From positions 1-64,000 of IMG/VR virus record IMGVR_UViG_3300033153_005694: 64,000 nucleotides of DNA; one strand, 5' to 3'. Source of the stretch: a virus. A model generated the notes under the pieces. It was not told the DNA's origin, did no database searches, and saw only the letters and a list, made by a program, of their open reading frames with translations. The position numbers and the translations under genes were made by a program. Below, piece by piece: positions 45,758 to 63,773 of the stretch (positions within the stretch are counted from its first letter, which is position 1; the number at the start of each line of letters is the position of its first letter).

Positions 45758-47133
45758 AGCGGTTCCTTGCTGTAGATTTTTTCGGCCCATTCAGCGATAG
45801 GTGAACGTACGATTTTGGTTAACGGTACAACGTGTAGACGAATGATGTCTTGCGGTTTAGTGGCCTGATTTAAGAGGACAGATAAGCCGTTGTTATATTT
45901 GGTAATGTATGCGTTATCGATTTGTCGATTAGAACCGATGATGATGATCTTGCAGTTCTTGCCGAATCTAGTTAGCATCTTCTGGAGTGATGCTTGAGAT
46001 TGGTTTTGGACTTCGTCGATGATTGCAATAGTATTGTTGAATGTTCTGCCACGCATACCAAGACCTGTCATGGCTTGAATATTGTAGTATTCCTGTAATT
46101 CCTCGACTTTGGCTGAGACGAATTGCTCGAACTCTTGGCCTTTGAGCTTTGACTTCTTATGACGTTCACGTATGATGAAGTCCAAAGTGTCGTAGAGAGG
46201 ATGCAGGTAAACTAGGTTTTTGTCGTCGGCAGAACCTGGTAAGAATCCAATCTGTTCGATATCTTCGACATCGTCGATAGATGCTCGAATGTATGTGATG
46301 GACTCGTACGAGTTGTTTTGTCGAACAAGTTTCATAGCGTTGGAAATTGCAGTTGCCGTTTTGCCGGTACCTGCAGGAGCTTCAGCTAAAACTAGAGTAG
46401 TAGTTAAGTCTTGAATTGCTGCCGATAAGAACATCTGGCCCGAGTTAATGGGGTTGAGGTCTTGTGCGCGTAAATCTGACTCTTGCTTTTTACCGATAAC
46501 GTCGATGAGGAAATTGGGCTTGATGGTAGCAAGCTTCTCATAACCTAGTGATTCACAAGTGAATCGGTAGTTGAAGTTTTCAGGCTTGTGGTCTGGATTG
46601 ACTGAGTATATGTTAGAATTTGACAGTAGTCCGAATTGTTCGGGTGTTACTTCGATAGAACGTATAAAGTCAGGATCAGTATCGTCGACAAGTTTGATGT
46701 CGGATACTTGTAGGCCAAGAGATTGCGCTCTAATACCACACATAACGTCGTTGGTGTAGAAAACTGTGTCGTGAAGCTTTGCATAGATTTTCGCTATATG
46801 GATAATCTTACGATCGTTGATGATGCTGTGATGGGCGCTAGAGTAGTCTGGATATTCAGAACATGCTACGATATGTATGGTAATGTTGTCTACTACTCTG
46901 CGAGTAACAGTGTAGTCACCTGTAGTAGAGGAACCTAGATGAGTTGCTCTAGTTAATAAGCGACCAAATGCACGAGCTTGATAGCCAAGAGATCCTGATT
47001 CGGATTTCTTGCCGTCTAGTTCATCGAGGACTGTCTCCGGAAGTACTATAGTGGTATCCGAAGATTTGCCGAGAGTTAAAAGGTTGGTATGATCTAGGAG
47101 TAGGATGTTGGTGTCTAAGATTTTATAGATCAT
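45754..47133 (-). CDS. phoH: PIN-PhoH family protein
   Basis: LDTNILL PIN domain; APAGTGKT; GFLPGS; MRGRTF..IIDEVQN..LTRFG. Confidence 0.93.
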   Translation of the reverse strand: MIYKILDTNILLLDHTNLLTLGKSSDTTIVLPETVLDELDGKKSESGSLGYQARAFGRLLTRATHLGSSTTGDYTVTRRVVDNITIHIVACSEYPDYSSAHHSIINDRKIIHIAKIYAKLHDTVFYTNDVMCGIRAQSLGLQVSDIKLVDDTDPDFIRSIEVTPEQFGLLSNSNIYSVNPDHKPENFNYRFTCESLGYEKLATIKPNFLIDVIGKKQESDLRAQDLNPINSGQMFLSAAIQDLTTTLVLAEAPAGTGKTATAISNAMKLVRQNNSYESITYIRASIDDVEDIEQIGFLPGSADDKNLVYLHPLYDTLDFIIRERHKKSKLKGQEFEQFVSAKVEELQEYYNIQAMTGLGMRGRTFNNTIAIIDEVQNQSQASLQKMLTRFGKNCKIIIIGSNRQIDNAYITKYNNGLSVLLNQATKPQDIIRLHVVPLTKIVRSPIAEWAEKIYSKEPL

Positions 47134-47744
47134 TACGAATTCCTCTTAAGTTTATCCTTCTTCGGTGCTTTAGTAGAAGTTGCCTTCTGGTGGTAAGTAC
47201 CCTTGAATCTAGATAAGACTTCGTCTTTACCCATCCACATGTCTTTACCGTCGATTACCTCCTGCATTTCATCGCCTGATAAGAAACCTAGATAGATGTC
47301 TCTGAATGCTTCAGAAAGAGATGCATCTACGAATTCTTGACGAGCTTTCATCTCGTGGCCTTTACCCATCATACCACCACTGTAGTTGTGGATCATGAAA
47401 GATGTGTGGTTAGCTACGACTAAGTCGTCACAGGCTAAAGCAATAACAGTTCCAGCTGATGCAACTGTACCAGATAGGTGAGCTACTGTATTGGCTTGAG
47501 ATGATTTGATAGCACTGATTATCATAAAGGCTGAATCGATAATACCACCTGGTGTGTTTAAATGGATATGAAATGTTTCGGCTTTAGATGCGTTCTTTAG
47601 TAGGTAGCAAAGCTCGTTGTACATTGATGGCTCTTCGATGCCGTCTGTTAGGTAGACTTCGGTGATGTTCTTGTTGACTAAGATTGGAACGTCTAGATCC
47701 CAAATTCTAGTTACTTCTTTCGGTAATGCGAAATCGATATTCAT
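47133..47744 (-). CDS. ClpP-like serine protease
   Basis: LNTPGG, VASAGT (Ser), FMIHN (His). Confidence 0.85.
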   Translation of the reverse strand: MNIDFALPKEVTRIWDLDVPILVNKNITEVYLTDGIEEPSMYNELCYLLKNASKAETFHIHLNTPGGIIDSAFMIISAIKSSQANTVAHLSGTVASAGTVIALACDDLVVANHTSFMIHNYSGGMMGKGHEMKARQEFVDASLSEAFRDIYLGFLSGDEMQEVIDGKDMWMGKDEVLSRFKGTYHQKATSTKAPKKDKLKRNS

Positions 47745-47853
47745 ATATTATCCTTGTATTTGGTGGTTATATAAAACCAGAATGATTGTAAGAGGAAATT
47801 TCCCCATACACCTGTAGCGATAAGAATTTCGAAGTATGAAACACTAAGTTCCA

Positions 47854-48435
47854 TTATGTATTTTTACCATTAAGTATATCTACAACTAGTTGGGAGTAGC
47901 CAGCGATATCTCGCCATGAATCATCGTAGTATGGATCACCATTAGCAATACGAGCTAGCTTATGACAAATCATTGTAAGAGCTTCTTGCATATATGGCTC
48001 CATATCATCATAATCAGAGTTACTTTTAATAACCGATAGCAGCGTTTGAGATATACGCGCGTGATCTGAAAATGCTCCGTAGCGACTACCTCGTTCAGTT
48101 AAAGTGTCTGCAATAGATACGTTAGTAGATTCACCGGCATCATTAGTTAGTTCTGGCATATCTGGATGGCCTATTGGAGAAAAGTTGTGATTACTAGGAT
48201 TATCTACGCCGTAGCCGCACTCAAGACAATTGCCCGCAGAATCTACAGAATGGTCTTTATCACCATCATTACATATAGGACAAATTTCAACTGAATAATC
48301 AGACTTGCTAATATTAGATTCAGCTAAAGCTTGTTCGACTGTAGGTTTAGGTCGTTCCATATCTGCAGCATAGCCAACAGTTACAAATGAGTTACTACGA
48401 TTTATTTCGTTTAGAATTGCTTCTGGACTGCTCAT
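47854..48435 (-). CDS. Zn-ribbon + DUF6378-like protein
   Basis: CPIC..CLECG; TLTERGSRYG.F..KLARI..DSWRDIAGY. Confidence 0.65.
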   Translation of the reverse strand: MSSPEAILNEINRSNSFVTVGYAADMERPKPTVEQALAESNISKSDYSVEICPICNDGDKDHSVDSAGNCLECGYGVDNPSNHNFSPIGHPDMPELTNDAGESTNVSIADTLTERGSRYGAFSDHARISQTLLSVIKSNSDYDDMEPYMQEALTMICHKLARIANGDPYYDDSWRDIAGYSQLVVDILNGKNT

Positions 48436-52821: not shown

Positions 52822-52920
52822 AATGGTGGGCTTACACCAAGAACGACCGCGATACGCAATCTTCTCGGAATTAAACTTGCAGTGTGTGCTGCAGAGGTAT
52901 CCGCTTGGCTGCCAAGGGGC
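52822..52920 (-). ncRNA. Candidate structured RNA in the HU leader
   Basis: GC-rich intergenic segment with nested stems GCCAAG/CUUGGU, GCGGAUAC/GUAUCGC, UGCAG/CUGCA. Confidence 0.4.
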
Positions 52921-53177
52921 TAGATAAAATATTCTGGGTAGCGCTCTTTGTATATAGGATCTATATATGTAGGACTATCTTCAGTAAAATAGTATTTTAT
53001 AGCTGCAGATTTATAATCTTCTAAAGAATTTACAGAGTAGTTTGATAAAAGAATAAAAGCTATAAGTGATTTACAGTCTTTCTCAAAAGTACTTAAAATA
53101 AAAGCAAAACCTTGGGCTGTGTAGTCTGTAGGACATCCTTGTGTTAATAAGGATAGAAGTAACGTTGTAGAATTCAT
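52920..53177 (-). CDS. Hypothetical protein with C-terminal YPEYFI tag
   Basis: Ends KERYPEYFI*. Confidence 0.7.
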   Translation of the reverse strand: MNSTTLLLSLLTQGCPTDYTAQGFAFILSTFEKDCKSLIAFILLSNYSVNSLEDYKSAAIKYYFTEDSPTYIDPIYKERYPEYFI

Positions 53178-53185
53178 AGTAGTTT

Positions 53186-53752
53186 CTAGTGTTTAACAAA
53201 ATTAATACCATTATATTGAGCTAGTTTAGTCATACAGTATCTGCAAGATGTTCCACATTCGACGTTTGAGCCTGCGGTGACTGGACAAGTGAATATAGAA
53301 GGATCTAGGTTTTCCACTTTGTCGTAGTTTAGTGAGCCGTGCATTAGTGAGTCGATGATGATTACATTTGGCATGCTCATTAAAGATGAAAAGTTGAAGT
53401 CACGTAAGCGTTTAGTAAAGGTATAGAATATGAAATTTGGGAGTAAACGGGCAATAGTGGACCACTTGTCGACGTAGGCTTGAGAGTGAAATTCGCCTGA
53501 CTCGTGTATACGAACTGTATGGCAAGGTCTGCGGTAGGATTTGAGTTCAGAGACTACGAGTTCAACGAATTCGTCAGTTTTGGAGATGTCTAAGCGAGCT
53601 TGACGATAAGGGACTACGGTTTTTGGAAAACGCTTTTGAGCTTTCAAAGCATAGCAACCTGGACATGTACGACCACATACAGACTTGTCAACGAGAATGT
53701 TGAAGATGTATTGGTCTTTAAGTTTGCTGTTTTGGAATTTGAATAGTTTCAT
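53186..53752 (-). CDS. GP88-like protein (radical-SAM related)
   Basis: CGRTCPGCYA, VRIHESGEF, FYTFTK, CPV..CGTSCRYC. Confidence 0.7.
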   Translation of the reverse strand: MKLFKFQNSKLKDQYIFNILVDKSVCGRTCPGCYALKAQKRFPKTVVPYRQARLDISKTDEFVELVVSELKSYRRPCHTVRIHESGEFHSQAYVDKWSTIARLLPNFIFYTFTKRLRDFNFSSLMSMPNVIIIDSLMHGSLNYDKVENLDPSIFTCPVTAGSNVECGTSCRYCMTKLAQYNGINFVKH

Positions 53753-53994
53753 ATAAACATCTCCGGATGATACTCTTTATAGTTGTGGTATTTGTGGGAT
53801 TCCTCAGCATAACCTGTAGTAGCGAAAAATTGCTTAAGATAAGTTTCAGTACCGATTTTGGATTTGGAAATAGGTAGGATATTGCCATAATCTGAGATGA
53901 CTAGGTAAGTTTTGTCGGTTTCGTCGATTACTGTAAGGTTGCCGGATTTACGTCCGTCTTTGGTATAAATAATGTCGTTAATTTTGAATTTCAT
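53749..53994 (-). CDS. Hypothetical protein with C-terminal HPEMFI tag
   Basis: SH3/KOW-like KINDIIYTKDGR; ends KEYHPEMFI*. Confidence 0.7.
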   Translation of the reverse strand: MKFKINDIIYTKDGRKSGNLTVIDETDKTYLVISDYGNILPISKSKIGTETYLKQFFATTGYAEESHKYHNYKEYHPEMFI

Positions 53995-54191
53995 ATAAGT
54001 AACTCCGGGAATTTGTTAGTGGTATCAGATGCTAGTACGTCTTGCTCTGCTGTAATCTGCTATAAGTAGTATCTAAAAATATCTAGATTACTGGTTTGGT
54101 AAGAAGTATAGCCTGCTGTGTTGGATTGAGTACCTATGGTATAGGTAATTGAATCATCGACGTTTAGCGGGACTCCAAATAAACCTGTCAT
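53991..54191 (-). pseudogene. Tagged small gene with internal TAG (54060-54062)
   Basis: MTGLFGVPLNVDDSITY..RYYL*QITAE..NKFPELLI*; ATGA overlaps at both ends. Confidence 0.6.
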
Positions 54192-56008
54192 GGTATGTCC
54201 TTCAAGGCTTGGGTGATGTGGGCTAATGAAGCGTCGTTAGGCAATTCAACTAGATTAGCCCAGTTTGGACCAATATCTAGATTTGCAGCATTGTGGACTA
54301 TTTGATCAGGCATAAAATCTTTAGTCATCACTGGAATGAGATTGTCGTTAAGCCACTTGATGATTTGTGGATCATTACGGACTTCAAAATAGATGCTATC
54401 GTAGATAGTTGAAGTAACGATGATGTCGTCTTGCAAGTTTGCATCGTCGATGAGTTGGTGCATCTTGTTGATGGTTAAAGCTGTAAGGATTGACCAGAAT
54501 TGGCAAGTTGCATTATTGAGAGTACGAATATCACGATCTGGAGAATCTGACTTAATATAGAAACCAAGACCTAGATGTATTTGGCCGTGTTGTCGTGCTG
54601 TAGGTAAAACGTAGTTCTCTCGATATTCGGTGATACCTGGATATAGGGTATTGTGGTAGTTGTTAAAGATTGCTTCGGCTGCTGGTAGTGAAATTTTGAG
54701 CGATGATGCAACTTTCGGTGGAAATGCACCATAAGATAAACCAAATGTAGCACCTTTACCTTTTTGTCGGATTGCATCGAGAGATTTGTTTGAGTGTCGC
54801 AGTTTGTCGAAGGCTTTAACGTCGATGACTGTATCGCCGGTTATCGGCATTTGTGCTGCAACTTCATCAGGGAAATAACCGTAAGCGTTTAAGCAGTGGC
54901 CATCTAGTCCTTCAAGGAATACATTGCATTTGTTAGTGTCACGGGATAGTGAAGCAATGACTCGGTCTTCCAAAGCTGAGTAATCGGCTGTAGCGATGAT
55001 GAAGCCTGGAGGTGCTGTAAAGCATTGCTTGATGGGTTTGGCAAATATCGAGCCTGTTGAAGGCATATTTAGCATGTTTGGATTGGATGATGTATAGCGA
55101 CCTGACTTAGCGCCTAAAAGTTTATAGGAGCCGTATAGGCGGTCGTTTACGGTGTAGCGATAAAATGCTTCGATGAAGTTGTTACGGACTATAGCGGCAA
55201 AGGAATGATCGATAAAGCACTGTGTGAAGTGCTTGATATCGGGATCACTGGTTTCGGAATTAACCCGTTCGACTTGATCACGATTCCAAGAAGGTAAACC
55301 TGTGTCTTTGGAAGTAGCTTCGGACTTGATACCTAGCATGTTGAAAAGTTCGGTCTTTTGCTTCGGAGAAGCAGGATTGAACTGTGGAATATCAACGGGT
55401 GGACTAGCTATCTTCTCGAGATATTTCGAATTATAAATGTCGGCTTTGTGCTGCGATAAAAGTTCGATGGCTTTAATAGCAATAGAATGGGTGGGGGATA
55501 ATTCACCTTTAAGAAATCGCTGTAAAAGAGGACGATTGAGTGAAAAAGTCTTGACAAGCTTGGCTGGCCATTTAGCGATACCGGTTGGTAGAAGTTCACT
55601 AGGTTGTGTAATACCTTGCTGTATAGCGAAGATGTGCATGAAATATGAACGATGGTTCATATCGTTGAATTTGAATGGCTTGATAAAGTCGGATGGTTGT
55701 TTAAGCTTGGATTGTTGGTCTGTGATGTAATCTTTGATTTTAGATTTGTGGGTCTTTGCAATGTAGCGCTGGATGATGGGGTTAGACGCTAGCTCTTCCG
55801 CGACTTTGGCTAACTGTGCATCGAGAACAGTCTCGAGTTGTTCGACTCTGTCGAGATCGATGTGGAGACCATTTCCCATAAGCCTTACACTATCTCGGAT
55901 AAGATGTTTAGCGGTGGTTTGGTAGAATTCATCGATTGATGGAGATACAGTGCGAGGTTCAGGAGCTGGGAGTAAACTCCAAGGTGAATAGTGAGCTGAG
56001 GTGGTCAT
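54188..56008 (-). CDS. Family A DNA polymerase, polymerase domain
   Basis: SGRYTSSNPNM.N, ADYSALEDR (A), RQKGKGATFGLSYG (B, Phe762 type), TIYDSI (C). Confidence 0.93.
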   Translation of the reverse strand: MTTSAHYSPWSLLPAPEPRTVSPSIDEFYQTTAKHLIRDSVRLMGNGLHIDLDRVEQLETVLDAQLAKVAEELASNPIIQRYIAKTHKSKIKDYITDQQSKLKQPSDFIKPFKFNDMNHRSYFMHIFAIQQGITQPSELLPTGIAKWPAKLVKTFSLNRPLLQRFLKGELSPTHSIAIKAIELLSQHKADIYNSKYLEKIASPPVDIPQFNPASPKQKTELFNMLGIKSEATSKDTGLPSWNRDQVERVNSETSDPDIKHFTQCFIDHSFAAIVRNNFIEAFYRYTVNDRLYGSYKLLGAKSGRYTSSNPNMLNMPSTGSIFAKPIKQCFTAPPGFIIATADYSALEDRVIASLSRDTNKCNVFLEGLDGHCLNAYGYFPDEVAAQMPITGDTVIDVKAFDKLRHSNKSLDAIRQKGKGATFGLSYGAFPPKVASSLKISLPAAEAIFNNYHNTLYPGITEYRENYVLPTARQHGQIHLGLGFYIKSDSPDRDIRTLNNATCQFWSILTALTINKMHQLIDDANLQDDIIVTSTIYDSIYFEVRNDPQIIKWLNDNLIPVMTKDFMPDQIVHNAANLDIGPNWANLVELPNDASLAHITQALKDIP

Positions 56009-56016
56009 AGGATTCC

Positions 56017-56304
56017 TTAGATAAAATATTCAGGGTATTGATTGGGGTTTTGGAGAACAAAGATAGGAAGGGCTGAATTAAAAATTTGCTTATGTCTAGT
56101 TGATGGCCATCTGCCTTTAGAGTCTGGGCCTTGATGAGTAGCAGGATATTTGTAGTAAAATAAAGGTTTACGACCATCCCAGCAAGTATCTAAGCGAGTA
56201 TCGTAGGTCTCTAGTACATGCTTTTTATCCAGCGGTATTTGGGTATATAGCCAATCTAGGTCTTCGAGACTAGTGATCTGGATGGTGTATTTGTTGATAT
56301 CCAT
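56017..56304 (-). CDS. Hypothetical protein with C-terminal YPEYFI tag
   Basis: Ends NQYPEYFI*. Confidence 0.7.
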   Translation of the reverse strand: MDINKYTIQITSLEDLDWLYTQIPLDKKHVLETYDTRLDTCWDGRKPLFYYKYPATHQGPDSKGRWPSTRHKQIFNSALPIFVLQNPNQYPEYFI

Positions 56305-56306
56305 AA

Positions 56307-56591
56307 CTAGATGAATAATTCAGGCCATTCGGTGCTGTTATAGGCTAATTGCTCGTTAATGACTACATACTCATAAGGATTACAGGCCAAACGTTTAGGT
56401 TCAGGTCTAGAGTGAGTTTGCGGATCACGCATATACCAACCCTCAACCCATGGGTCTCTGATAAGAACGTAGATGTTCTCCTTTGTGACTTTGTCTACAG
56501 TTGTAATAGTGTCGTTATAGCGTGAGCCGTAGCCTTTAACTAGGATAGTATCGCCTATTTTGATTGGACGGCCTAAGATGTCTTGAAGCAT
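56307..56591 (-). CDS. Hypothetical protein with C-terminal WPELFI tag
   Basis: DILGRPIKIGDTI KOW-like start; ends TEWPELFI*. Confidence 0.7.
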   Translation of the reverse strand: MLQDILGRPIKIGDTILVKGYGSRYNDTITTVDKVTKENIYVLIRDPWVEGWYMRDPQTHSRPEPKRLACNPYEYVVINEQLAYNSTEWPELFI

Positions 56592-56600
56592 AGAGAGTCC

Positions 56601-56775
56601 TTAAATAAAAAATTCGGGGTATTGGTCTTTGAAATCGTTGAGAGTTGAAAGTGTAAACTTGTGGTCGGATAAGTAATCGTTGAGGTATAGCGATGTACTA
56701 GTAATCGACGTATTTGATGGTTGTAAAAGGTATACTAAGTTTGCGATATATCGTCTTGAGATGTAGAGTTAGCAT
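56601..56775 (-). pseudogene. Frameshifted tagged small gene
   Basis: RBS and ATG at 56775 are in a different frame from the 3' part ending DFKDQYPEFFI*. Confidence 0.55.
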
Positions 56776-57424
56776 TGGATTCCTTTACGTAAGTATTGAT
56801 TGAATCGAATAGTTTGTAAGTTGCACAAGCATCAATTGCTGCATAGTGGTGAACGTGTTCATCGTAAATGGTAGATAAGTCAAAGTTATCGGCGGATATC
56901 GCCCAATTTCCATACCACTTTCCAGCTAGCTCTTTGAGGCCAGTGTTAGCTTTCCAAGTCTCGACATGGTTGAGAATGGTTTTAGCGTAGATTTGCGTGT
57001 CTTCGTAGCTGATTGGCATCTTGCCTGTATGGTAATAAATATGCTTGAAATCGTAGGAAGCATTGTGCCATATTTGCTGCTTTTTGGTGGTAACCAAGAA
57101 GTTAAGAATTAAGTTGGTAATTCGAGGATTATCGAGAATGAATACATAAGCCTCAGAATCGCTAATTGCAATACTACAATGGGTTAAAACAACATGAGAT
57201 GGGTGGTCGAGAGCTGTAGCTCGAAGTTTAGATTCGAGTTCGATACGTCTACGTTTCGGTGGATTAGTATCTAGTTCAGCTTGCATTGAGGCTAGATCTG
57301 CTGGAGTATAGCGAATAGCGGTTTCGAAATCAGCTGCGAATAAGGCAGGTAATGAGCGAAGCCATTGATTTGCGGTATAAGCAGATTTGGTAGATTGGTA
57401 GGTGACTTTGATTGATTGCTGCAT
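56735..57424 (-). CDS. 3'-5' exonuclease domain of family A DNA polymerase (separate gene)
   Basis: ADFET (Exo I), WHNASYD (Exo II), YAAIDA (Exo III). Confidence 0.88.
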   Translation of the reverse strand: MQQSIKVTYQSTKSAYTANQWLRSLPALFAADFETAIRYTPADLASMQAELDTNPPKRRRIELESKLRATALDHPSHVVLTHCSIAISDSEAYVFILDNPRITNLILNFLVTTKKQQIWHNASYDFKHIYYHTGKMPISYEDTQIYAKTILNHVETWKANTGLKELAGKWYGNWAISADNFDLSTIYDEHVHHYAAIDACATYKLFDSINTYVKESNANSTSQDDISQT

Positions 57425-57432
57425 GACGAGTC

Positions 57433-57618
57433 CTAGATAAGCAATTCGGGATATTGCTCTTGAAGTTGAGGTAAAATAATAGTTGGAATATCACTAGACA
57501 ACTCAGTACAGATTTGCCCAATTGAGCAATCTCCACAATTGCTGCCGCTATAGTATATAATGTTGTTTTGTATATAAGTATCAGGATGGGATAATAAAGT
57601 AACATATTTGTCTAACAT
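57433..57618 (-). CDS. Cys-containing small protein with C-terminal YPELLI tag
   Basis: CGDCSIGQIC; ends EQYPELLI*. Confidence 0.65.
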   Translation of the reverse strand: MLDKYVTLLSHPDTYIQNNIIYYSGSNCGDCSIGQICTELSSDIPTIILPQLQEQYPELLI

Positions 57619-57626
57619 AGGTGCTC

Positions 57627-59042
57627 CTATAGGTGAGTTGCGTTATAAAGCTCTTTCGAAGTTCTAGTAACTGCTACATAGTATAAGTTTAAAGATTCGC
57701 GCTCTTGAGGTGAGAGTTGGGATAATGGTAAGCCATGTTTGATTGATTTGATAGAATCTGCGGTAGATTCATTAAGGTCATTAGCGATAGTTACTTCATC
57801 GAATTCAGCACCTTTGCAAGAATGTACAGTTGCAAGTGTGTAAGCTTGGGATGATTGCTCGTGTTTGCGAGCTTCAGCATAAGAATCGAGAATTACAGAT
57901 TTGCCGTGTCGTTGAAGAAGACGGATGGCTTGAACTAGTTGTATATCGTCTTTGTAGAGAGACGCTAGGTATACTATGGGTGATTTGTAAGTGTCTTTAA
58001 GTAGCTGGTCTTCATACCAGTCATCGATATCTGCTTGAATGAACTTGTAGCCAGGATCAGTGATGAAACCTTGATATTTGAGACTGCATAGCATTAAAGG
58101 TAGCTTGAAGATATCTTTAGCCTTGCGGACTAGGCCGTAAGGGATGTTAAGCTGGTTAAGCTCGATCATCTTATGGATAAGTGCAGAGTTAGTACGCGTT
58201 AAGTAAGCTCTAGTTGAGATTGTTGGGTCGACTAAAGGTACACCTTTGAAAGACATAGAAGAATCTAGGTAAGATTGGCAGAAATGCTCGATTTTAGTAG
58301 CGATTGTGTTAGGAACTCTGAAAGATTGTGACATCTGGAATAAAGTGCCTTCGTCTTTGAGAACTTCAAAGCAGTTGATTGTGTAGTTGAATGTGTAGAT
58401 GTTTTGGAATGGGTCACCTACTGCAATTTTGCGAGGTGATGGTAGGAGTTTGAAAATTTCAAGAGTAACCTCGTTAAGGTCACCGGCCTCATCCAGCATA
58501 ATGAAGTCAAAGTTGTCGTAAGCTACCTCGCCTTTGTGAAGTAAAATGTGAAACAGTTTGAGGTAAAAGTCGTGAGTACAATCGATCTTGCCAGAATGCA
58601 TAAGACCTAGGTATTTAGTTGCGATCTTGGTGTATAAAGGTGGAAGCTGGTATTCATCAGCATATTCGGTGTATGTTAGGAATTTAGATAAGCAGAATGC
58701 TTTGATACTATTGATGATTTCCCATTTAGTTTCGTACTTGATTTTCTCAGTAATAGTTTTATAGTTGAAAAAGCCTACAGAAAGTTTAAGAGGGATAACT
58801 GTAGCACGGTAAGCCATTGAGTGAGTTGTCATACAGTGAGTTGAAGATGGGAATTTCCTCTTCGAGTCGTTAGCTACGGATGTATTGTAGGCTAGATAAA
58901 GACCATTGGTATGTGGAATTGCTTTAGCGATAGCTGTAAGCATGGTAGTTTTGCCAGATCCGGCTATTGATGAGATAAGGGTTAGGCCTTCAGTAGCTTG
59001 AATATAGTCGAGGATAGGCTGTTGTTCAGGAGTTAGCTGCAT
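57627..59042 (-). CDS. UvrD/Rep-like SF1 helicase
   Basis: AGSGKTT, LAYN, LDEAGD, VGDPFQNIY, SFR, TVHSCKG.EFD, YVAVTR. Confidence 0.93.
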   Translation of the reverse strand: MQLTPEQQPILDYIQATEGLTLISSIAGSGKTTMLTAIAKAIPHTNGLYLAYNTSVANDSKRKFPSSTHCMTTHSMAYRATVIPLKLSVGFFNYKTITEKIKYETKWEIINSIKAFCLSKFLTYTEYADEYQLPPLYTKIATKYLGLMHSGKIDCTHDFYLKLFHILLHKGEVAYDNFDFIMLDEAGDLNEVTLEIFKLLPSPRKIAVGDPFQNIYTFNYTINCFEVLKDEGTLFQMSQSFRVPNTIATKIEHFCQSYLDSSMSFKGVPLVDPTISTRAYLTRTNSALIHKMIELNQLNIPYGLVRKAKDIFKLPLMLCSLKYQGFITDPGYKFIQADIDDWYEDQLLKDTYKSPIVYLASLYKDDIQLVQAIRLLQRHGKSVILDSYAEARKHEQSSQAYTLATVHSCKGAEFDEVTIANDLNESTADSIKSIKHGLPLSQLSPQERESLNLYYVAVTRTSKELYNATHL

Positions 59043-59050
59043 GTAGGTCC

Positions 59051-59299
59051 TTAAATAAAGTATTCGGGATGAGATTGTAGAGTGAAGCGGTCAACTTCGA
59101 TGATACCGTACTTTTTATGATGTTTAACAAAAGTATCAACACTTGTAAAAGTACCTGTAAGTGGGCTTGTAAGAGGCCTAGATAATGCTGTTGATTTATC
59201 TACACACCAATTAGTCCATGTTCCGGTGACAGGATCAGTAACATAGTAACGAGTAGAATCTGAAGGAGTAAGATCCGCTATAGTCATAAGTAATCGCAT
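59051..59299 (-). CDS. Hypothetical protein with C-terminal HPEYFI tag
   Basis: Ends QSHPEYFI*. Confidence 0.7.
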   Translation of the reverse strand: MRLLMTIADLTPSDSTRYYVTDPVTGTWTNWCVDKSTALSRPLTSPLTGTFTSVDTFVKHHKKYGIIEVDRFTLQSHPEYFI

Positions 59300-59307
59300 A
59301 TAAGTCC

Positions 59308-59622
59308 TTAAAGAAGAAGTTCAGGATATTCCTGTTGTAAGTTGAGATCGCAAAGTGGGCGTTTATTAATGTTGAAATCTGCTGTTAAGACTTCACAAAT
59401 AGTATTTAGTTGTGCGGGTGTCCCATATACTTCGAGTATGTTACGTGATTTAATGATTATATTAGAAGGACTAATGCATGCGTCGTTGTAAATTGAAAGA
59501 CGACCTTGTGTCTTTAAGTGATTTCGATGCTCTTCTAAACACTGTTTAGCCATAAACTTGTGGTAGTAAGAATGCCAGAAGATGATAAAATTTCGGGAAG
59601 TATACTTCCAAGATAAAGACAT
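59308..59622 (-). CDS. Hypothetical protein with C-terminal YPELLL tag
   Basis: Ends QEYPELLL*. Confidence 0.7.
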   Translation of the reverse strand: MSLSWKYTSRNFIIFWHSYYHKFMAKQCLEEHRNHLKTQGRLSIYNDACISPSNIIIKSRNILEVYGTPAQLNTICEVLTADFNINKRPLCDLNLQQEYPELLL

Positions 59623-59624
59623 AA

Positions 59625-60071
59625 TTAAAGGAAAAGTTCAGGATACTCTTCTGCGATAAAAGAAGTATCAGGAATTTTAGTAAGGGTATTACGGATATTA
59701 GCTAGGTTATCAAGTAGTTGCTGTTTGATAGTATTTGTTCTAGACTTGATAGCTAGATTTTTAGCAGCTAAGGCGATGATTGGTGATGTGAAAAGAGAGC
59801 AAGAATAATAGTTTACGTTTTTCACGTCGATATTAGAGTGTATTGTTTTTATTCTCCAACCATTCTTGCCTAAAAGAGTTGCACTAGTTGATTTTTCGAC
59901 GATTTTGTCGTCCTTAATGGTAAATAGTTTGCCGGTAGGAGCAAAACTAAATTGCTTATCTCCCCAACTAGTGGTTTTTTCTTTGACTGTAACCTCGTAA
60001 GTTCGTAAAGATTTGCCTTGTATATTGCCGGTTTGTGTAACAGATGTTGGTTCAATTAAATATGCTATCAT
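59625..60071 (-). CDS. Hypothetical protein with C-terminal YPELFL tag
   Basis: Ends EEYPELFL*. Confidence 0.7.
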   Translation of the reverse strand: MIAYLIEPTSVTQTGNIQGKSLRTYEVTVKEKTTSWGDKQFSFAPTGKLFTIKDDKIVEKSTSATLLGKNGWRIKTIHSNIDVKNVNYYSCSLFTSPIIALAAKNLAIKSRTNTIKQQLLDNLANIRNTLTKIPDTSFIAEEYPELFL

Positions 60072-60080
60072 AAGAGTCCT

Positions 60081-60287
60081 TTAGATTTGAAGTTCAGAGT
60101 GTTGCCTGAATAAAATGTCGAGAAGTTGACCTAGAGTGTCGGCTTCGAAAGTATGTTGGTCGATGGTAATTCCACTTTGAAAGTCGTGGACAGACTTCCA
60201 AACGCTATCGATAGTATTGCTTGCAGTTACCCAATTTTCGGGGTCTGTTAAGGTTTTAGTAGCTATAGAGCTGATAGAAGTTGCCAT
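60081..60287 (-). CDS. Hypothetical protein with degenerate tag HSELQI
   Basis: Ends RQHSELQI*. Confidence 0.6.
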   Translation of the reverse strand: MATSISSIATKTLTDPENWVTASNTIDSVWKSVHDFQSGITIDQHTFEADTLGQLLDILFRQHSELQI

Positions 60288-60311
60288 ATGGGTCCTTTGG
60301 GTAAATAGAAG

Positions 60312-60340
60312 AGAGCCTCCAAGATAAAATCTGGAAGCTC
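60312..60340 (-). terminator. Hairpin/terminator after the phosphoesterase gene
   Basis: Imperfect inverted repeat gagcctccaagat..atctggaagctc followed on the - strand by tcttctattt. Confidence 0.45.
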
Positions 60341-60347
60341 GATCTAG

Positions 60348-60767
60348 TTACGAGATGTTAAATAAATTTCGAGAAATCTCACCGTTATCGATATGATAGG
60401 TAATTGACTTTATGGTACCAGGAGAACGTCGGTATCCATGAGCGTATGCCCAATCATTGAGAGGTGCTAAGTTTCGATGCGATTCAGCTTTGCATAAACG
60501 TGTATCGACTACTGCGTCTTTGTGGGTGTGTCCAAAGTGTGCAAATCGGTGTTTAGTGGAGCTGAATATAGTTTGGCAGTCATGAGCCATGACTTCACCT
60601 GCATGTGCCATCTTCATACCATCACCGTGGGCAAATTGTAGGAGAGTAGTGCCGTGTTGGTGGTATTTGATGTTTGTAGGTGTGTCATCGACTATAACTC
60701 TAGGATTGTCCTTAAAGGCCATACGAATGACCTCACGAACAGCTACTCCAGATGATACGTCGTGATT
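60348..60767 (-). CDS. Metallophosphoesterase exon 2
   Basis: Starts NHD; FAHGD and FGHTH motifs. Confidence 0.85.
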   Translation of the reverse strand, partial: NHDVSSGVAVREVIRMAFKDNPRVIVDDTPTNIKYHQHGTTLLQFAHGDGMKMAHAGEVMAHDCQTIFSSTKHRFAHFGHTHKDAVVDTRLCKAESHRNLAPLNDWAYAHGYRRSPGTIKSITYHIDNGEISRNLFNIS

Positions 60768-61629
60768 CAAGTTTGTTATCGTTAGGCTTTTTATCCTAAC
60801 TTCTATTAGTTTGTTTTGCTAACCATACTATAAGAGAATGATTATGTTTAGAATTATTACAAGTTGGGCAAGCTATAGTAAAATTATCTATCGTATGTGC
60901 TCCGCCTTTTGATAAAGGTTCTATATGGTCTAATTGATAATTATTTCTACAAGACTTCATACAGTATGAACATAATTTAGGTTGTTCTAATAACCATTGA
61001 GTAGTTTCAGCAAAAGTAGCAGCATTTTCATGCTGTACAGTTTCTCTACGTTTATGTCTAGAAGCTCTTTGCCATGCTTTAACTTTTTCAGGATTATTAG
61101 CTTTCATACGTTTATAGTTAGCTTTTACTCTAGCTTTGCCTTCTGGTGTATTTCGTTGCTTATGTAAAGTTTCGTTTATTCTACGTTTATGTAGTATTCT
61201 ACGTTCTTTTTCTTTACGAGCACGTTGTTCTTTTACACCAGGTTTAGATTCTCTTATAGCTTTAATAGCTTTAATACAATCTTTACATTCATTGCGGTAA
61301 GTATTACTATCTTTTCGATAGTAAAACTCAATTAATTCTTTAGTTTGGTTACATTTAGTACAAGTTTTCATGAATTTATTATATCATGATTACCATTAAA
61401 TATAGCTTAAATTTCTAATAGTTCGGCATATTTTTTTACCTTCAACTTAATGGTCAGGTATCGAGGACTCTTGGAAGTATTATAGTCTACTAAGTAGTAT
61501 CAACTTCTATGCTCTGCGCCTGACTAAGTTTTTACACTTAGCCTTCGGACTCGAGTAGGCATTTCAGTCGTTCTCGCTTAATTCCTCGATAATTATAAGG
61601 TACATTTCTGTACCAAACGGCAATTACTT
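60768..61629 (-). ncRNA. Group I intron carrying an HNH gene
   Basis: Exon ends in U with P1 cggu/gccg; P7-like gcagagcauag / uaugccga; terminal G. Splicing restores the GNHD motif. Confidence 0.85.
60796..61371 (-). mobile_element. Intron-encoded HNH endonuclease
   Basis: KTCTKC..CKDC; CSYC..LDHIEPLSKGGAH..N...CPTCNNSK. Confidence 0.92.
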
Positions 61630-62355
61630 ACCGGCTATGTTGTAGAAGTGTACGATTTCGTGTTTCTCAAGTGCCTTGTTAACTGCGTATATTAGGCCTT
61701 CGTAGGCTGCTCGTAGAATTTTGGGATACCTAGAGTCAACTGATAAAATATTACCAGACTTTGGAGTCATATTCTTGAAGTCGTCGACTTCCATTAAATC
61801 TCCGAGATCTACTACGATACCAACTTTAGAGTTTGGAGAACAGTTAAATAGGTAGTCGTATGCAGATTGCAGAGATTTGGAAGCTTTTTCAACATTCCAA
61901 TCAGCCTCAGATTCTTCGTGCCACATAAGGGCTCCGAAGTGCACATCATTGGAGATGTAAACAGTGGCTAGATCTGAATCTAGCTCTTCCTCAGTAGGAG
62001 AACTGTGTTGAGGAAGAGTAGGGATAGATTTGACCATGTCTGAGATTGTAGAACTGAACGCATCAAGAAATTGTTGTTTGTCGACATCTGTCTTGACCCA
62101 TTGTTGCTTGACTTTGCCATCAGGTCCGTAAAGTGTAGATGATCTCTTGAGAATCTCATCATATGAAACAGAGTTTCCACTATCTAGTGGAAGTACTCCT
62201 TTTCGTCGTAGTGTAGCAATATGTTGCTTGATGCGGCTAGGACTGGTTTGCTGTGAGTCGGGTTTCAGTTTTTTGAGCTGCTTTGAGATTTTCTTGGTAT
62301 TAAAATCACATTCATAACAGATATCAGCGAATACGTCAGATTTAATATATGACAT
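61630..62355 (-). CDS. Metallophosphoesterase exon 1
   Basis: ISNDVHFG and DLGDL motifs; ends YNIAG at the splice site. Confidence 0.85.
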
Positions 62356-62409
62356 TGGTATCCTTTCGCGCTAGATTAGGGGCTTACAGTCGGAAGAAAT
62401 GCCCAAGAA

Positions 62410-62661
62410 CTAGAGGGAATATTCAGGATACTGATCGAAGATTTGCTCAAATTTGATAGCTAAAGATTGGCGAGCATCACTATGGTTTAGGAATATGTCG
62501 ATATAAGTGTTATCCGCCGTAGAAAAATAGTCCTTACCCTAAGAGTAACTAACATATCGGCTAAAAGGTATAAGTGAGACCACCAGATAATGAGTAAGAT
62601 TGTCGAGCGAGTTCAGATGGTTTGAAGATTGAATCGAGGTTGGCTTATAGATGTTTCACAT
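62410..62661 (-). pseudogene. Tagged small gene with two in-frame stops
   Basis: M*NIYKP..SYS*GKDY..FDQYPEYSL*; TAATG coupling to the upstream gene. Confidence 0.55.
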
Positions 62662-63083: not shown

Positions 63084-63773
63084 TTATTGCTTGAATAAGC
63101 TTCCGCTTGATGATGGCTTAGCAGCAGTTTTAGGTGTTGGTTTGCTAGATACTGATTTGTCCGATTTCTTCGCTTCATACCAAGCCTCGATATCTGCAGG
63201 AGTTAAGTCATTTTTGTAAGTTATATTGCTAGCATACTTCTCTTGCTCAAGAGCTAGTCTCTTACCAGCTTCAGTCTCATTGATGATTTCTTCGGCAGAT
63301 GCTCCGGCTTCGTTGAAGAATGATTTGATAACCATTTTCTTAGTGATTTGTCCAGCGTTTTTACCTTGGGCAGGTATGTAGTATTCCTCTTGTAGTCTGA
63401 TCTTGATTGGTATATCAGAGAATTGTTGGATTACAGAGAACTCTTGTAGCTTTTTGTCTTTGCCAACTGCGTGCTCTTCAGGTTCGATCTCGAAGTCGTC
63501 GCCATCTGTCATACCTGCTACAATAGCAAGTTTGTTGATAAGCTTAGCACCGATCTCGTTAGTGTTGCCGTCCGTGTTAGTTACGTATGGTCCATAGATT
63601 GTTTGGTCATTACCGTTATAATCTAGGTTGAAGTTAACAGACTCTGCGCCTTTTGCTGATACATCTACTGATGCGAACTTGATAGTTACGTCATAGATAC
63701 CAGATTTGCTGATGTAAGAACCTCCGTTAGATTCTTTGATAGCCTCTGGGTTTGATGTTACTTTAAATTTCAT
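63084..63773 (-). CDS. Putative single-stranded DNA-binding protein
   Basis: YISKSGIYDV.I OB-fold-like N-terminus, flexible tail ending near Phe, replication context. Confidence 0.5.
   Translation of the reverse strand: MKFKVTSNPEAIKESNGGSYISKSGIYDVTIKFASVDVSAKGAESVNFNLDYNGNDQTIYGPYVTNTDGNTNEIGAKLINKLAIVAGMTDGDDFEIEPEEHAVGKDKKLQEFSVIQQFSDIPIKIRLQEEYYIPAQGKNAGQITKKMVIKSFFNEAGASAEEIINETEAGKRLALEQEKYASNITYKNDLTPADIEAWYEAKKSDKSVSSKPTPKTAAKPSSSGSLFKQ

What the first reader, a model, noticed from the sequence alone, without database searches (positions are those of the whole stretch)
52920..62661. About 12 unrelated small proteins share a C-terminal [YHWF]PE[YLMF][FL][IL]-COOH tag
Seen in sequence: C-termini are YPEYFI (52920), HPEMFI (53749), FPELLI (53991), YPEYFI (56017), WPELFI (56307), YPEFFI (56601), YPELLI (57433), HPEYFI (59051), YPELLL (59308), YPELFL (59625), and degenerate HSELQI (60081) and YPEYSL (62410). 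The motif always ends exactly at the stop codon. The protein bodies (61-148 aa) look unrelated. The Pro codon varies (CCA/CCG/CCT/CCC), Glu varies (GAA/GAG) and the stop varies (TAA/TAG/TGA), so conservation is at the peptide level rather than a DNA repeat. None of the interspersed core enzymes (Pol, exonuclease, helicase, HU) carries it. Inference: a shared terminal docking or sorting signal, such as a degron, a packaging tag or a hub-binding peptide analogous to SSB C-tails, used by a modular set of accessory effectors. I know of no described system with this motif.
Basis: partly seen in the sequence, partly recalled or inferred. Interest (0 to 1): 0.9.

Follow-up and report, generated by a model that had tools for sequence, protein, structure and literature searches.

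The report
Shared C-terminal tag on phage proteins
About two dozen unrelated small proteins of this marine N4-like phage end in the same six-residue tail, an undescribed address label that I found only in phages carrying one particular ATPase and protease-adaptor gene pair, which is probably its reader.

Summary
The window is part of an 83-kb N4-like phage genome whose closest cultured relative is Alteromonas phage AD45. In the whole genome, 18 intact ORFs, 2 variants and 4 disrupted ORFs end in [YHF]-P-E-x-[FL]-[IL]-stop. All lie on the minus strand between 52.9 and 78.1 kb.

The motif is never internal: 152 terminal and 0 internal matches in 806 ORFs of tag-rich phages, and 0 in 631 control ORFs. 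Selection acts on the peptide, because the third base of the Pro codon is random. The protein bodies are unrelated at BLAST and profile level.

The new result is a genomic link. The tag occurs only in phage genomes that encode a DUF2201 protein (HExxH zincin plus vWA with an intact MIDAS), usually together with a MoxR AAA+ ATPase. This holds in N4-like podoviruses, in the cultured T4-like Vibrio phage Va1 and in uncultured low-GC large phages. Ten tag-free relatives lack the pair.

Best reading, at about 40%: the tail is a client tag read by this machine.

This scan found the same tag before on other DNA (e1-4772764). I found no published description.

The parts
52920..53177 (-). Tagged ORF, 85 aa, ends YPEYFI-TAG. 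A 119-nt gap follows, so no downstream gene is coupled to it.
53749..53994 (-). Tagged ORF, 81 aa, ends HPEMFI-TGA. Its stop overlaps the next start (ATGA), and the Pro-Glu codons CCG GAG supply that gene's GGAG ribosome-binding site.
   Evidence: a homologue in L007 also carries the tag (cluster 12)
53991..54191 (-). 43-aa ORF (54060..54191) whose TAG stop is followed in frame by 22 codons ending FPELLI-TGA. This is a nonsense-interrupted tagged gene or a sequence error. The genome encodes no tRNA.
56017..56304 (-). Tagged ORF, 95 aa, ends YPEYFI-TAA. The next start follows after 8 nt (TAAGGA...ATG).
56307..56591 (-). Tagged ORF, 94 aa, ends WPELFI-TAG. It belongs to a conserved family of 11 proteins, all tagged, and has a tagged homologue in Vibrio phage Va1.
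   Evidence: (cluster 2)
56601..56768 (-). 55-codon open frame ending YPEFFI-TAA without ATG, GTG or TTG. It overlaps the exonuclease 3' end in another frame and is probably a disrupted tagged gene.
57433..57618 (-). Tagged ORF, 61 aa, ends YPELLI-TAG.
59051..59299 (-). Tagged ORF, 82 aa, ends HPEYFI-TAA. It lies directly upstream of the helicase gene.
59308..59622 (-). Tagged ORF, 104 aa, ends YPELLL-TAA. It is 36% identical over 56 aa to a tagged ORF of Vibrio phage Va1.
59625..60071 (-). Tagged ORF, 148 aa, ends YPELFL-TAA. It belongs to a conserved family of 5 proteins, all tagged.
   Evidence: (cluster 4)
60081..60287 (-). Variant tail, 68 aa, ends HSELQI-TAA (Ser replaces Pro, Gln replaces Phe/Leu).
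62410..62538 (-). 42-codon open frame ending YPEYSL-TAG without a start codon. An ATG lies upstream in another frame, so this is probably a frameshifted or decayed tagged gene.

Best explanation
The tail is a portable short linear motif with the consensus hydrophobic(-13), hydrophobic(-10), [Y/H/F](-6), P(-5), E(-4), x, [F/L], [I/L]-COOH. It is selected at the protein level and has been appended to many unrelated early/middle accessory proteins. In this genome that is about half of the genes between 52.9 and 78.1 kb. The tail serves as a common handle for one reader.

The most likely reader is the phage's own MoxR-type AAA+ ATPase and its partner. The ATPase lies at contig 74,068-74,970 plus 73,779-74,075. 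The partner lies at 75,261-76,463 and carries an HExxH zincin domain fused to a vWA domain with a complete MIDAS (DxSxS...T...D). Both genes sit inside the block of tagged genes.

Inferred mechanism: the invariant Glu, and/or the free terminal carboxylate that the strictly terminal position implies, completes the MIDAS metal coordination. The two or three terminal hydrophobic residues fill an adjacent groove. The MoxR ring then remodels the captured client, and the zincin domain may clip or degrade it. This would be tag-directed processing or timed clearance of accessory proteins.

What is shown: the peptide-level tag, the unrelated bodies, the strictly terminal position, the co-occurrence with the gene pair, and the intact MIDAS and HExxH motifs. 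What is inferred: binding, the role of Glu, and proteolysis.

The confidence given for this entry is that of the whole statement, reader included.
For: Peptide-level selection. Over 58 tags, the third base of the Pro codon carries 0.06 bits (CCA 22, CCT 14, CCC 11, CCG 11), against 2.0 bits at bases 1 and 2.

Strictly terminal position. 152 terminal and 0 internal matches in 806 ORFs from 20 tag-rich sources; 0 and 0 in 631 ORFs from 22 tag-free sources.

Unrelated bodies. The best all-vs-all BLAST E-value is 5e-4 and is anchored on the tail. hhalign of three conserved families aligns only the last 13-15 columns.

The tag is kept while bodies diverge. The P and E are two of only three invariant columns in an 11-member family. 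Conserved families are tagged in 11 of 11, 9 of 9, 5 of 5 and 4 of 4 members, and in 5 of 5 database homologues of the 288-aa NTase-like family.

Link to the gene pair. Among helicase-related phages, 28 of 30 loci with at least 51% identity carry tags, and 37 of 38 loci at or below 49% carry none. DUF2201_N, or the protein itself, is found in 11 of 12 tag-bearing records of at least 45 kb: G000, G001, G005, G006, G012, G014, G015, G016, G022, AD45-P1 and Va1. The one miss, G013, is a 45%-complete fragment. It is found in 0 of 10 tag-free relatives, 5 of them at least 91% complete. MoxR is also absent in the 5 of those that I tested. The base rate of DUF2201 among phage records is 133 of 50,697.

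Searching from DUF2201 outwards. 22 of 37 IMG/VR loci around DUF2201 homologues hold tagged ORFs within 8 kb, including low-GC contigs of large phages. Cultured T4-like Vibrio phage Va1 has 13 tagged ORFs flanking DUF2201 and 21 of 105 ORFs tagged in its first 50 kb, two of them directly after its MoxR gene.

Shared gene content. Between this genome and the 39-kb G001 stretch, only MoxR, DUF2201, ThyX and one weak match are shared. With 87 kb of Va1, the shared genes are MoxR, DUF2201, NrdD, NrdG, an HD-like protein and three tagged proteins.

Intact motifs in DUF2201. In a 30-sequence alignment the invariant residues are H83, H87, H92 and D274, S276, S278, T332, D356.

Literature, passages read. 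A MIDAS binds a target that supplies the sixth, acidic ligand (PMC13036017). vWA-MoxR systems are linked to a zincin peptidase plus small variable proteins with a conserved C-terminal peptide (PMC7159879).
Against: The link runs in one direction only. 15 of 37 DUF2201 loci have no tag within 8 kb. Several DUF2201-bearing large genomes (G026-G030, G032-G034) have 0 or 1 match to the PExFI-stop pattern. HExxH and MIDAS are equally intact in those.

The N4-like tag-bearing phages form one clade, so their co-occurrence counts as a single evolutionary event. The independent lineages number perhaps two to four. They may share hosts (Vibrio, Alteromonas) and a gene pool, which would equally fit a host-encoded reader.

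In G022 the three pattern matches lie 63-80 kb from DUF2201, and no MoxR match was found. Six short tag-bearing fragments (3-14% complete) show no DUF2201.

In this genome the MoxR gene is split by a frameshift. Tag-poor relatives such as AD45-P1 carry only 3 tags, all far from the pair.
Confidence: 0.4

Rival explanations
1. The tail is read by a host factor of marine gammaproteobacteria. One form is a degron for ClpXP, ClpAP, Lon or FtsH, since nonpolar C-termini destabilise proteins. Another is a peptide that docks on a host hub such as the beta clamp or an SSB-tail pocket. In this reading the DUF2201/MoxR link reflects a shared gene pool among phages of the same hosts.
For: Three terminal hydrophobic residues with an upstream acidic residue resemble known C-terminal degrons and hub-binding tails (recalled, not tested). 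The tag occurs in unrelated phage types whose cultured members infect Alteromonas and Vibrio. DUF2201 is not sufficient for tags.
Against: Alteromonas N4-like phage PT11-V19, which gave no DUF2201 hit, has 0 tags in 98 ORFs. The invariant Pro-Glu is not a feature of the ssrA-type (LAA) or clamp (QL[SD]LF) consensus (recalled). All 10 tag-free relatives lack DUF2201, which a host reader does not predict.
Confidence: 0.3
2. The tail is read by another phage-encoded protein, for example the ClpP-like protease (47133..47744) with its upstream DUF6378 protein, or a replisome protein (SSB, Sak4, helicase or Pol) that binds acidic-aromatic tails as T7 polymerase binds the tails of gp2.5 and gp4.
For: A ClpP-like gene lies in the non-structural region. 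The gene upstream of it belongs to a cluster seen only in tag-bearing loci, 8 positive and 0 negative. Sak4 ends in a similar acidic-aromatic tail, [VA]D[DE][YF]xL, and the conserved tagged families sit in the replication module of tag-poor relatives.
Against: ClpP, SSB, Sak4, helicase, Pol and primase are also present in tag-free relatives. The pre-ClpP gene is missing from tag-rich L002. In the stretches I held, the T4-like and other large tag-bearing phages share none of these replisome genes with this genome.
Confidence: 0.12
3. The conservation is a by-product of an RNA or DNA signal at gene junctions: a translational-coupling element, an A/U-rich enhancer upstream of the TAAGGA ribosome-binding site, or a recombination site for cassette shuffling.
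For: 13 of 22 tags in this genome are followed by a stop, then 7-10 nt, then ATG, with the stop forming part of TAAGGA. With ATGA overlaps, Pro-Glu is mostly coded CCG GAG. GAG is used in 14 of 18 TGA rows but only 2 of 40 TAA/TAG rows (my count from the rows).
Against: Third-codon positions are nearly random. The tag is kept before long gaps (52920, 62410, 64005) and at overlaps alike. Untagged genes use the same 8-nt junction, for example the helicase and the 188-aa gene. The peptide is conserved across GC contents of 20-45%. The codon bias shows only that the tag's synonymous sites are co-opted for the next gene's ribosome-binding site.
Confidence: 0.03
4. The tagged proteins are very divergent paralogues of one fold, and the tail is merely its best-conserved last helix.
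For: A weak amphipathic pattern precedes the tag: hydrophobic residues at -10 in 136 of 183 tags, and also at -13. The median length is small, 90 aa.
Against: Lengths range from 42 to 490 aa. One carrier is an NTase-like 288-aa protein and another a DUF7448 protein. Profile comparisons align only the tail. Homologues of one family in tag-free phages lack the tail (cluster 5).
Confidence: 0.02

Closest known systems
Peptide-processing modules attached to vWA-MoxR conflict systems: a zincin metallopeptidase plus small, fast-diverging 'FxSxx-COOH'-type proteins (Kaur, Burroughs, Iyer and Aravind 2020, PMC7159879; passages read)
   Same: A MoxR AAA+ ATPase, a vWA domain with a MIDAS said to bind an extended peptide, a zincin peptidase, and small variable proteins whose only conserved part is a C-terminal peptide.
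   Different: Those are bacterial (mainly actinobacterial) systems with one or a few precursors, other motifs (FxSxx, RxD, acidic runs), often a radical-SAM/SPASM partner, and a released peptide. Here the setting is a phage, the zincin is fused to the vWA domain, and 20 or more unrelated whole proteins carry the tail. The motif is P-E-x-hydrophobic-hydrophobic at the very end, and cleavage is untested.
MoxR/vWA chaperone pairs with MIDAS-mediated client capture: NorQ-NorD (PMC13036017, passages read); Rea1/Midasin with Ytm1/Rsa4 (cited in that paper)
   Same: A DxSxS-T-D MIDAS whose sixth ligand comes from the client. The AAA+ ring remodels what the vWA partner holds. The partner's C-terminus also contacts the ring.
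   Different: Each of those machines has one dedicated client. No portable tag shared by many clients is known, and they have no fused peptidase.
Hub-binding C-terminal tails: bacterial SSB tail (DDDIPF), T7 gp2.5 and gp4 tails, beta-clamp-binding motifs (recalled, not from a call)
   Same: A short acidic-plus-hydrophobic peptide at the extreme C-terminus that mediates docking.
   Different: With SSB, one tail meets many receptors. Clamp motifs have a Q-L-x-L-F consensus with no invariant Pro-Glu. None of these is spread over half of a phage's accessory proteins.
C-terminal address or degradation tags: ssrA/LAA degron, PTS1 (SKL-COOH), encapsulin cargo-loading peptides (recalled, not from a call)
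   Same: It works like these: a few residues at the very end, on unrelated proteins, read by one receptor.
   Different: The sequence, the organismal setting and (presumably) the receptor differ. No compartment or protease has been shown here.

Membership tests
vWA-MoxR system with zincin peptide-processing module (Kaur et al. 2020) | MoxR-clade AAA+ ATPase encoded in the locus | tested here: met
   phrog_1297 and Pfam AAA_5 / bpMoxR matches for contig 74068..74970. It is 44% identical to the homologues in G001 and Va1. In this genome the gene is split by a frameshift.
vWA-MoxR system with zincin peptide-processing module (Kaur et al. 2020) | vWA domain with MIDAS residues | tested here: met
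   Pfam DUF2201 (VWA-like). D274, S276, S278, T332 and D356 are invariant in 30 sequences.
vWA-MoxR system with zincin peptide-processing module (Kaur et al. 2020) | Zincin (HExxH) metallopeptidase | tested here: met
   Pfam DUF2201_N. H83, H87 and H92 are invariant and E84 is at least 90% conserved. One relative has HNxxH.
vWA-MoxR system with zincin peptide-processing module (Kaur et al. 2020) | Small, rapidly diverging proteins with a conserved C-terminal peptide encoded nearby | tested here: met
   More than 85 BLAST clusters of tagged proteins. Tagged ORFs flank DUF2201 and MoxR.
vWA-MoxR system with zincin peptide-processing module (Kaur et al. 2020) | C-terminal peptide of the FxSxx, RxD or acidic-run type | tested here: not met
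   The motif here is [YHF]PEx[FL][IL].
vWA-MoxR system with zincin peptide-processing module (Kaur et al. 2020) | The peptidase cleaves the precursor and releases the peptide | not testable with these tools
   This needs biochemistry or C-terminal proteomics.
Beta-clamp-binding motif | Consensus Q-L-[S/D]-L-F or Q-L-x-L-x-L (recalled) | tested here: not met
   Position -6 is Y, H or F in 156 of 183 tags and Q in only 2. P and E are invariant by the way the set was chosen, and variants are rare: 11 lack P and 3 lack E.
ssrA-type ClpX degron | C-terminal L-A-A or similar small nonpolar end (recalled) | tested here: not met
   The last two residues are [FL][IL] in most of the 183 tags: F 116 and L 48 at -2, I 124 and L 53 at -1.
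Divergent paralogue family | Detectable similarity of the bodies at profile level | tested here: not met
   hhalign aligns only the last 13-15 columns in 3 of 3 family pairs. BLAST all-vs-all gives nothing beyond the tails.

The most novel reading that the evidence does not exclude
A virus-encoded, tag-directed protein-handling system. A MoxR AAA+ motor with a zincin-vWA adaptor recognises a portable C-terminal P-E-x-hydrophobic-hydrophobic-COOH address, through its MIDAS metal site, on up to half of a phage's accessory proteins, and processes or clears them as one class. The module and the 'language' of its tag have moved between N4-like podoviruses, T4-like Vibrio myoviruses and other large phages. 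New accessory genes join the system simply by acquiring six terminal codons. This would give the widespread but unexplained phage MoxR/vWA gene pair its first function.
Probability: 0.35. Interest if true: 0.9.

Novelty: new variant of a known kind. Interest (0 to 1): 0.78.

Why it matters
Short tails read by one partner are known, for example degrons, clamp-binding and SSB-type tails, and PTS1. I found no description of a phage in which a quarter to a half of the early/middle accessory proteins carry one common C-terminal address, and none of this motif in particular.

The tag marks a whole class of 'dark matter' phage proteins as functionally connected. It gives a simple sequence rule for finding them; most are not even annotated in the GenBank record of Vibrio phage Va1. 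It also links them to the MoxR/vWA-zincin pair, whose role in N4-like and large phages is unknown.

Cultured phages carry the system: Va1 and its relatives, and AD45-P1 to P4. The hypothesis can therefore be tested directly with reporter fusions, MIDAS mutants and pull-downs.

Tried and rejected
DNA-level explanations were tested and rejected. The junction often contains TAAGGA, and codons are biased to CCG GAG at ATGA overlaps, but that is secondary use of synonymous sites.

The paralogue explanation was rejected.

Stop-codon recoding (TAG read as an amino acid) was considered because of the in-frame TAG at 54060. The large genes of the window are intact under table 11, and no tRNA is encoded, so it is a single nonsense change or a sequence error.

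I looked for an alternative shared tail in tag-free helicase relatives and saw none, apart from three paralogues in L043.

ClpP and the pre-ClpP gene were considered as reader. ClpP is also present in tag-free relatives, and the pre-ClpP gene is absent from tag-rich L002.

rIIA-like was considered. Its cluster looked specific to tag-bearing phages, but tag-free phages have a divergent 694-aa counterpart, and several tag-rich loci show no rIIA between primase and nuclease.

A PDZ-type reading (the last and third-last residues hydrophobic) was dropped, because position -3 is variable and -2 is conserved.

Literature. One search searched six motif strings; the hits were dominated by unrelated words and were uninformative. 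One search (N4-like plus conserved C-terminal and related terms) returned 11 papers. One search (AD45 phage name) returned 10. One search (DUF2201, COG3864, PF13203, PF09967) returned 4. One search (phage, MoxR, vWA, C-terminal motif) returned 1. One search (Va1, phiKT1024) returned 3. I saw these as listings and abstract starts only, and none mentions such a tail. Supplements were not consulted.

PDB sequence search with the DUF2201 profile: the best relevant hit was the integrin alpha-X I domain at E = 0.31.

Family PF26128, the precomputed label of the 288-aa tagged family, is not in the local Pfam library, so I do not know its name.

No sequencing run was listed for the stretch, and no RNA holder was listed.

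Nothing was folded, so there is no evidence either way on binding.

Full report
**What the window is.** The 64-kb window is the first 64 kb of a single 83,027-bp contig. Structural genes, including a split virion RNA polymerase, lie on the plus strand up to about 43 kb. Early/middle genes lie on the minus strand from 83 kb down to 43 kb. The DNA polymerase is 59% identical to that of Alteromonas phages vB_AmaP_AD45-P1 to P4, which are N4-like podoviruses of about 100 kb. PHROG and Pfam scans name the following genes: SSB, Sak4-like protein, PD-(D/E)XK nuclease, rIIA-like protein, N4 gp43-type primase, UvrD-type helicase, a separate 3'-5' exonuclease, Pol A, NrdD/NrdG, PhoH, a ClpP-like protease, a MoxR-type AAA+ ATPase and a DUF2201_N+DUF2201 protein.

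**The observation.**
- Nine are complete ORFs of 61-148 aa.
- The frame ending at 53991 continues a 43-aa ORF through an in-frame TAG.
- The frames ending at 56601 and 62410 have no start codon.
- The rest of the contig holds as many again. The genome total is 18 intact 'PE' tags, 2 variants (HSELQI and YYPEFLN) and 4 disrupted frames (53991, 56601, 62410, 74996). All lie on the minus strand between 52,920 and 78,066.
- That is roughly half of the genes in the stretch (my count).
- All 21 six-frame matches to PE[YLMFIV][FLY][ILV] in the genome are followed directly by a stop. 200 shuffles gave a mean of 0.06.

**Peptide or nucleic acid.** I compared 58 tags from this genome and four related loci.
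- The third base of the Pro codon carries 0.06 bits (CCA 22, CCT 14, CCC 11, CCG 11). The first two bases carry 2.0 bits. Leu, Phe, Ile and Tyr also use synonymous codons, and all three stops occur.
- The downstream arrangement varies: 13 of 22 tags in this genome have a stop, then 7-10 nt, then ATG, with the stop inside TAAGGA. Three have ATGA overlaps, two have 2-nt gaps and four have gaps of at least 25 nt.
- Untagged genes use the same 8-nt junction.
- At ATGA overlaps the tag is coded CCG GAG and so supplies GGAG for the next gene. GAG is used in 14 of 18 TGA rows but only 2 of 40 TAA/TAG rows (my count). This is a secondary use of synonymous sites.
- The selection is therefore on the peptide.

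**Are the bodies related.** They are not.
- All-vs-all BLAST of 22 carriers gives nothing better than E = 5e-4, and the alignments are anchored on the tails.
- I built profiles of three conserved carrier families, with 11, 8 and 5 members. hhalign aligns only the last 13-15 columns in all three pairs.
- Known body types differ: one carrier is a 288-aa Pol-beta-like nucleotidyltransferase-like protein and another a DUF7448 protein. Most carriers have no family.

**Anatomy of the tag.** Across 19 non-redundant tag-rich sources, 183 of 701 ORFs end in PE-x-hydrophobic-hydrophobic.
- Position -6 is Y 104, H 37, F 15.
- Position -3 is L 76, Y 37, E 14.
- Position -2 is F 116, L 48.
- Position -1 is I 124, L 53.
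- Positions -10 and -13 are mostly hydrophobic, as in an amphipathic helix leading into the tag.
- Variants without P (11) or without E (3) are rare.
- The motif [YHFW]PE.[FL][IL] is terminal 152 times and internal 0 times in 806 ORFs. It is absent, terminal or internal, from 631 ORFs of tag-free sources, including low-GC ones. This strict end position suggests that the free carboxylate, or the chain end, is part of what is recognised.

**Distribution among relatives.** A helicase profile found 68 IMG/VR loci.
- 28 of the 30 loci with at least 51% helicase identity carry tags. The two without are short, 4.2 and 12 kb.
- 37 of the 38 loci at or below 49% carry none.
- Some lineages are tag-rich, with 15-23 tags per 21 kb and up to 21 of 37 ORFs. 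AD45-like lineages are tag-poor, with 1-6 tags on a few conserved families. The AD45-P1 genome has three.
- Clustering 821 ORFs gave 85 clusters that contain tagged proteins, most of them singletons.
- Conserved families keep the tag in all members. Homologues of one family in tag-free phages lack it.
- The five database homologues of the NTase-like family all end in the tag.

**The link to MoxR and DUF2201.** A DNA pattern for the tag also hit low-GC contigs unrelated to N4-like phages.
- In one of them (G001, 96.8 kb, CheckV 37% complete), 15 tagged ORFs cluster around a MoxR ATPase and a DUF2201_N+DUF2201 protein. These two genes, ThyX and one weak match are the only genes shared with this genome in 39 kb.
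- I then tested presence and absence. The DUF2201 protein, or family PF13203, is found in 11 of 12 tag-bearing records of at least 45 kb. The miss is a 45%-complete fragment.
- It is found in 0 of 10 tag-free helicase relatives, five of them at least 91% complete. MoxR is also absent from the five I tested.
- Six short tag-bearing fragments (3-14% complete) show no DUF2201.
- Only 133 of 50,697 phage records match the protein at all.
- Starting from DUF2201, 22 of 37 IMG/VR loci hold tagged ORFs within 8 kb, and 15 hold none.
- The closest cultured homologue (48.7% identity) is in the T4-like Vibrio phage Va1. There, 13 tagged ORFs flank DUF2201, and 21 of 105 ORFs in the first 50 kb are tagged, including the two genes directly after its MoxR gene.
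- In a DUF2201 tree, tags occur in most branches of a 27-member ingroup. The three-member outgroup has one tag in one locus and none in the other two.
- A per-genome count of the PExFI-stop pattern gave 9, 23, 8, 7 and 3 in five tag-bearing genomes. DUF2201-bearing genomes G014, G026-G030 and G032-G034 gave 0 or 1; of these, G014 and G032 carry tags of other forms that this pattern misses. Seven genomes without DUF2201 gave 1, 0, 0, 0, 0, 0, 0. The reversed control pattern gave 2 matches in all.
- So a tag predicts DUF2201, but DUF2201 does not predict tags.

**What DUF2201 looks like.** In 30 aligned homologues, H83, H87 and H92 (HExxH...H) and D274, S276, S278, T332 and D356 (a complete MIDAS) are invariant. 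No solved structure is detectable by sequence. In this genome the MoxR gene is split by a frameshift at a run of A.

**Mechanism.** From the passages I read, a MIDAS binds its target through a sixth, acidic ligand contributed by the target, and MoxR rings remodel what their vWA partner holds (PMC13036017). vWA-MoxR systems have been predicted to bind extended peptides. They are linked to zincin peptidases that process small variable proteins with a conserved C-terminal peptide (PMC7159879).
- The tag has an invariant Glu, a strictly free end and a hydrophobic finish, and it occurs only beside such a machine. It therefore fits a client tag for that machine.
- A host reader (a degron or a hub) remains a serious rival at about 0.3. 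The independent lineages are few and may share hosts. DUF2201 is not sufficient.
- An Alteromonas N4-like phage without a DUF2201 hit (PT11-V19) has no PE tag in 98 ORFs. This weakly favours a phage reader.

**Relation to earlier notes of this scan.** After I had reached the MoxR/DUF2201 lead, the scan's notes showed that the same P-E-x-x-L tail had been reported on another genome, a T4-like phage and a cultured Vibrio phage (e1-4772764). Another note pointed me to the 2020 paper (e1-5983171). These are leads, not independent evidence. My presence/absence tests and the Va1 analysis were done here.

**Novelty.** None of the searches listed under Tried and rejected found this motif, or any tag-bearing protein class of this kind, in print. 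The general principle, a short tail read by one partner, is known. The motif, its scale, its phage setting and its link to MoxR/vWA-zincin are not. I file it as a new variant of a known kind.

Noticed in passing
window 54060-54062 (minus strand): An in-frame TAG separates a 43-aa ORF from the 22-codon tagged tail. With no suppressor tRNA in the genome, it is either a nonsense mutation or an assembly error.
   Followed up: partly
L006 10779-11970 (contig 73,779-74,970): The MoxR ATPase is split into 300-aa and 98-aa ORFs that overlap by 8 nt at a run of A. Relatives have a single ORF of 385-436 aa. A 95-codon tagged frame without a start (contig 74,996-75,283) lies between MoxR and DUF2201. Together with the other disrupted frames, this suggests either indel errors in the assembly or a decaying genome.
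   Followed up: partly
window 63084-63773 (SSB); L006 2509-3297 (nuclease); L006 1274-1936 (Sak4): There is a second set of shared tails. In tag-bearing relatives, SSB and the PD-(D/E)XK nuclease both end in P-x-L-F-[K/G]-x. Sak4 ends in the acidic-aromatic [VA]D[DE][YF]xL, which resembles the tag without its Pro.
   Followed up: no
L137+L138 (Alteromonas phage PT11-V19, OP751378.1): This N4-like phage has no PE tag, but about nine small early/middle proteins end in an acidic-Trp tail (EKDDGWI, KNDDGWI, ALNDDWI and similar). It also has a MoxR-like AAA_5 ATPase next to a DUF7192 protein. Lineage-specific C-terminal tags may be a general habit of such phages.
   Followed up: partly
window 53186-53752 (minus strand): A 188-aa protein of Pfam family GP88 carries a CxxxCxxC motif near its N-terminus and is flanked by tagged ORFs. 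Its cluster occurs in 5 tag-rich N4-like loci and in none of the 14 tag-free loci. It may be a radical-SAM-like enzyme, but I did not test this.
   Followed up: no
window 60348-62355 (minus strand): A metallophosphoesterase is split into a 243-aa N-half (61624..62355) and a 140-aa C-half (60348..60770), with an HNH endonuclease ORF (60796..61371) between them. Relatives have one ORF of 377-394 aa, and L040 shows the same split. A 41-nt stretch at 60766-60806 is 97.6% identical to uncultured crAss-like phage cr6_1.
   Followed up: no
window 47133-48435 (minus strand): A ClpP-like protease lies in the non-structural region. It is preceded by a DUF6378-domain protein whose cluster is seen only in tag-bearing loci. 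Tag-free relatives have a different small gene at that position.
   Followed up: partly
L129 and L139 (Vibrio phage Va1, MK387337.2): The GenBank record annotates only 135 features in 195 kb, and most of the 34 tagged ORFs I found in 87 kb are unannotated. This cultured phage would be a convenient model for testing the tag.
   Followed up: partly
window 32629-43079 (plus strand): The virion RNA polymerase is in two ORFs (2246 and 1239 aa) that overlap by 10 nt. The AD45-P1 record also notes a potential frameshift in its N4 gp50-like gene.
   Followed up: no
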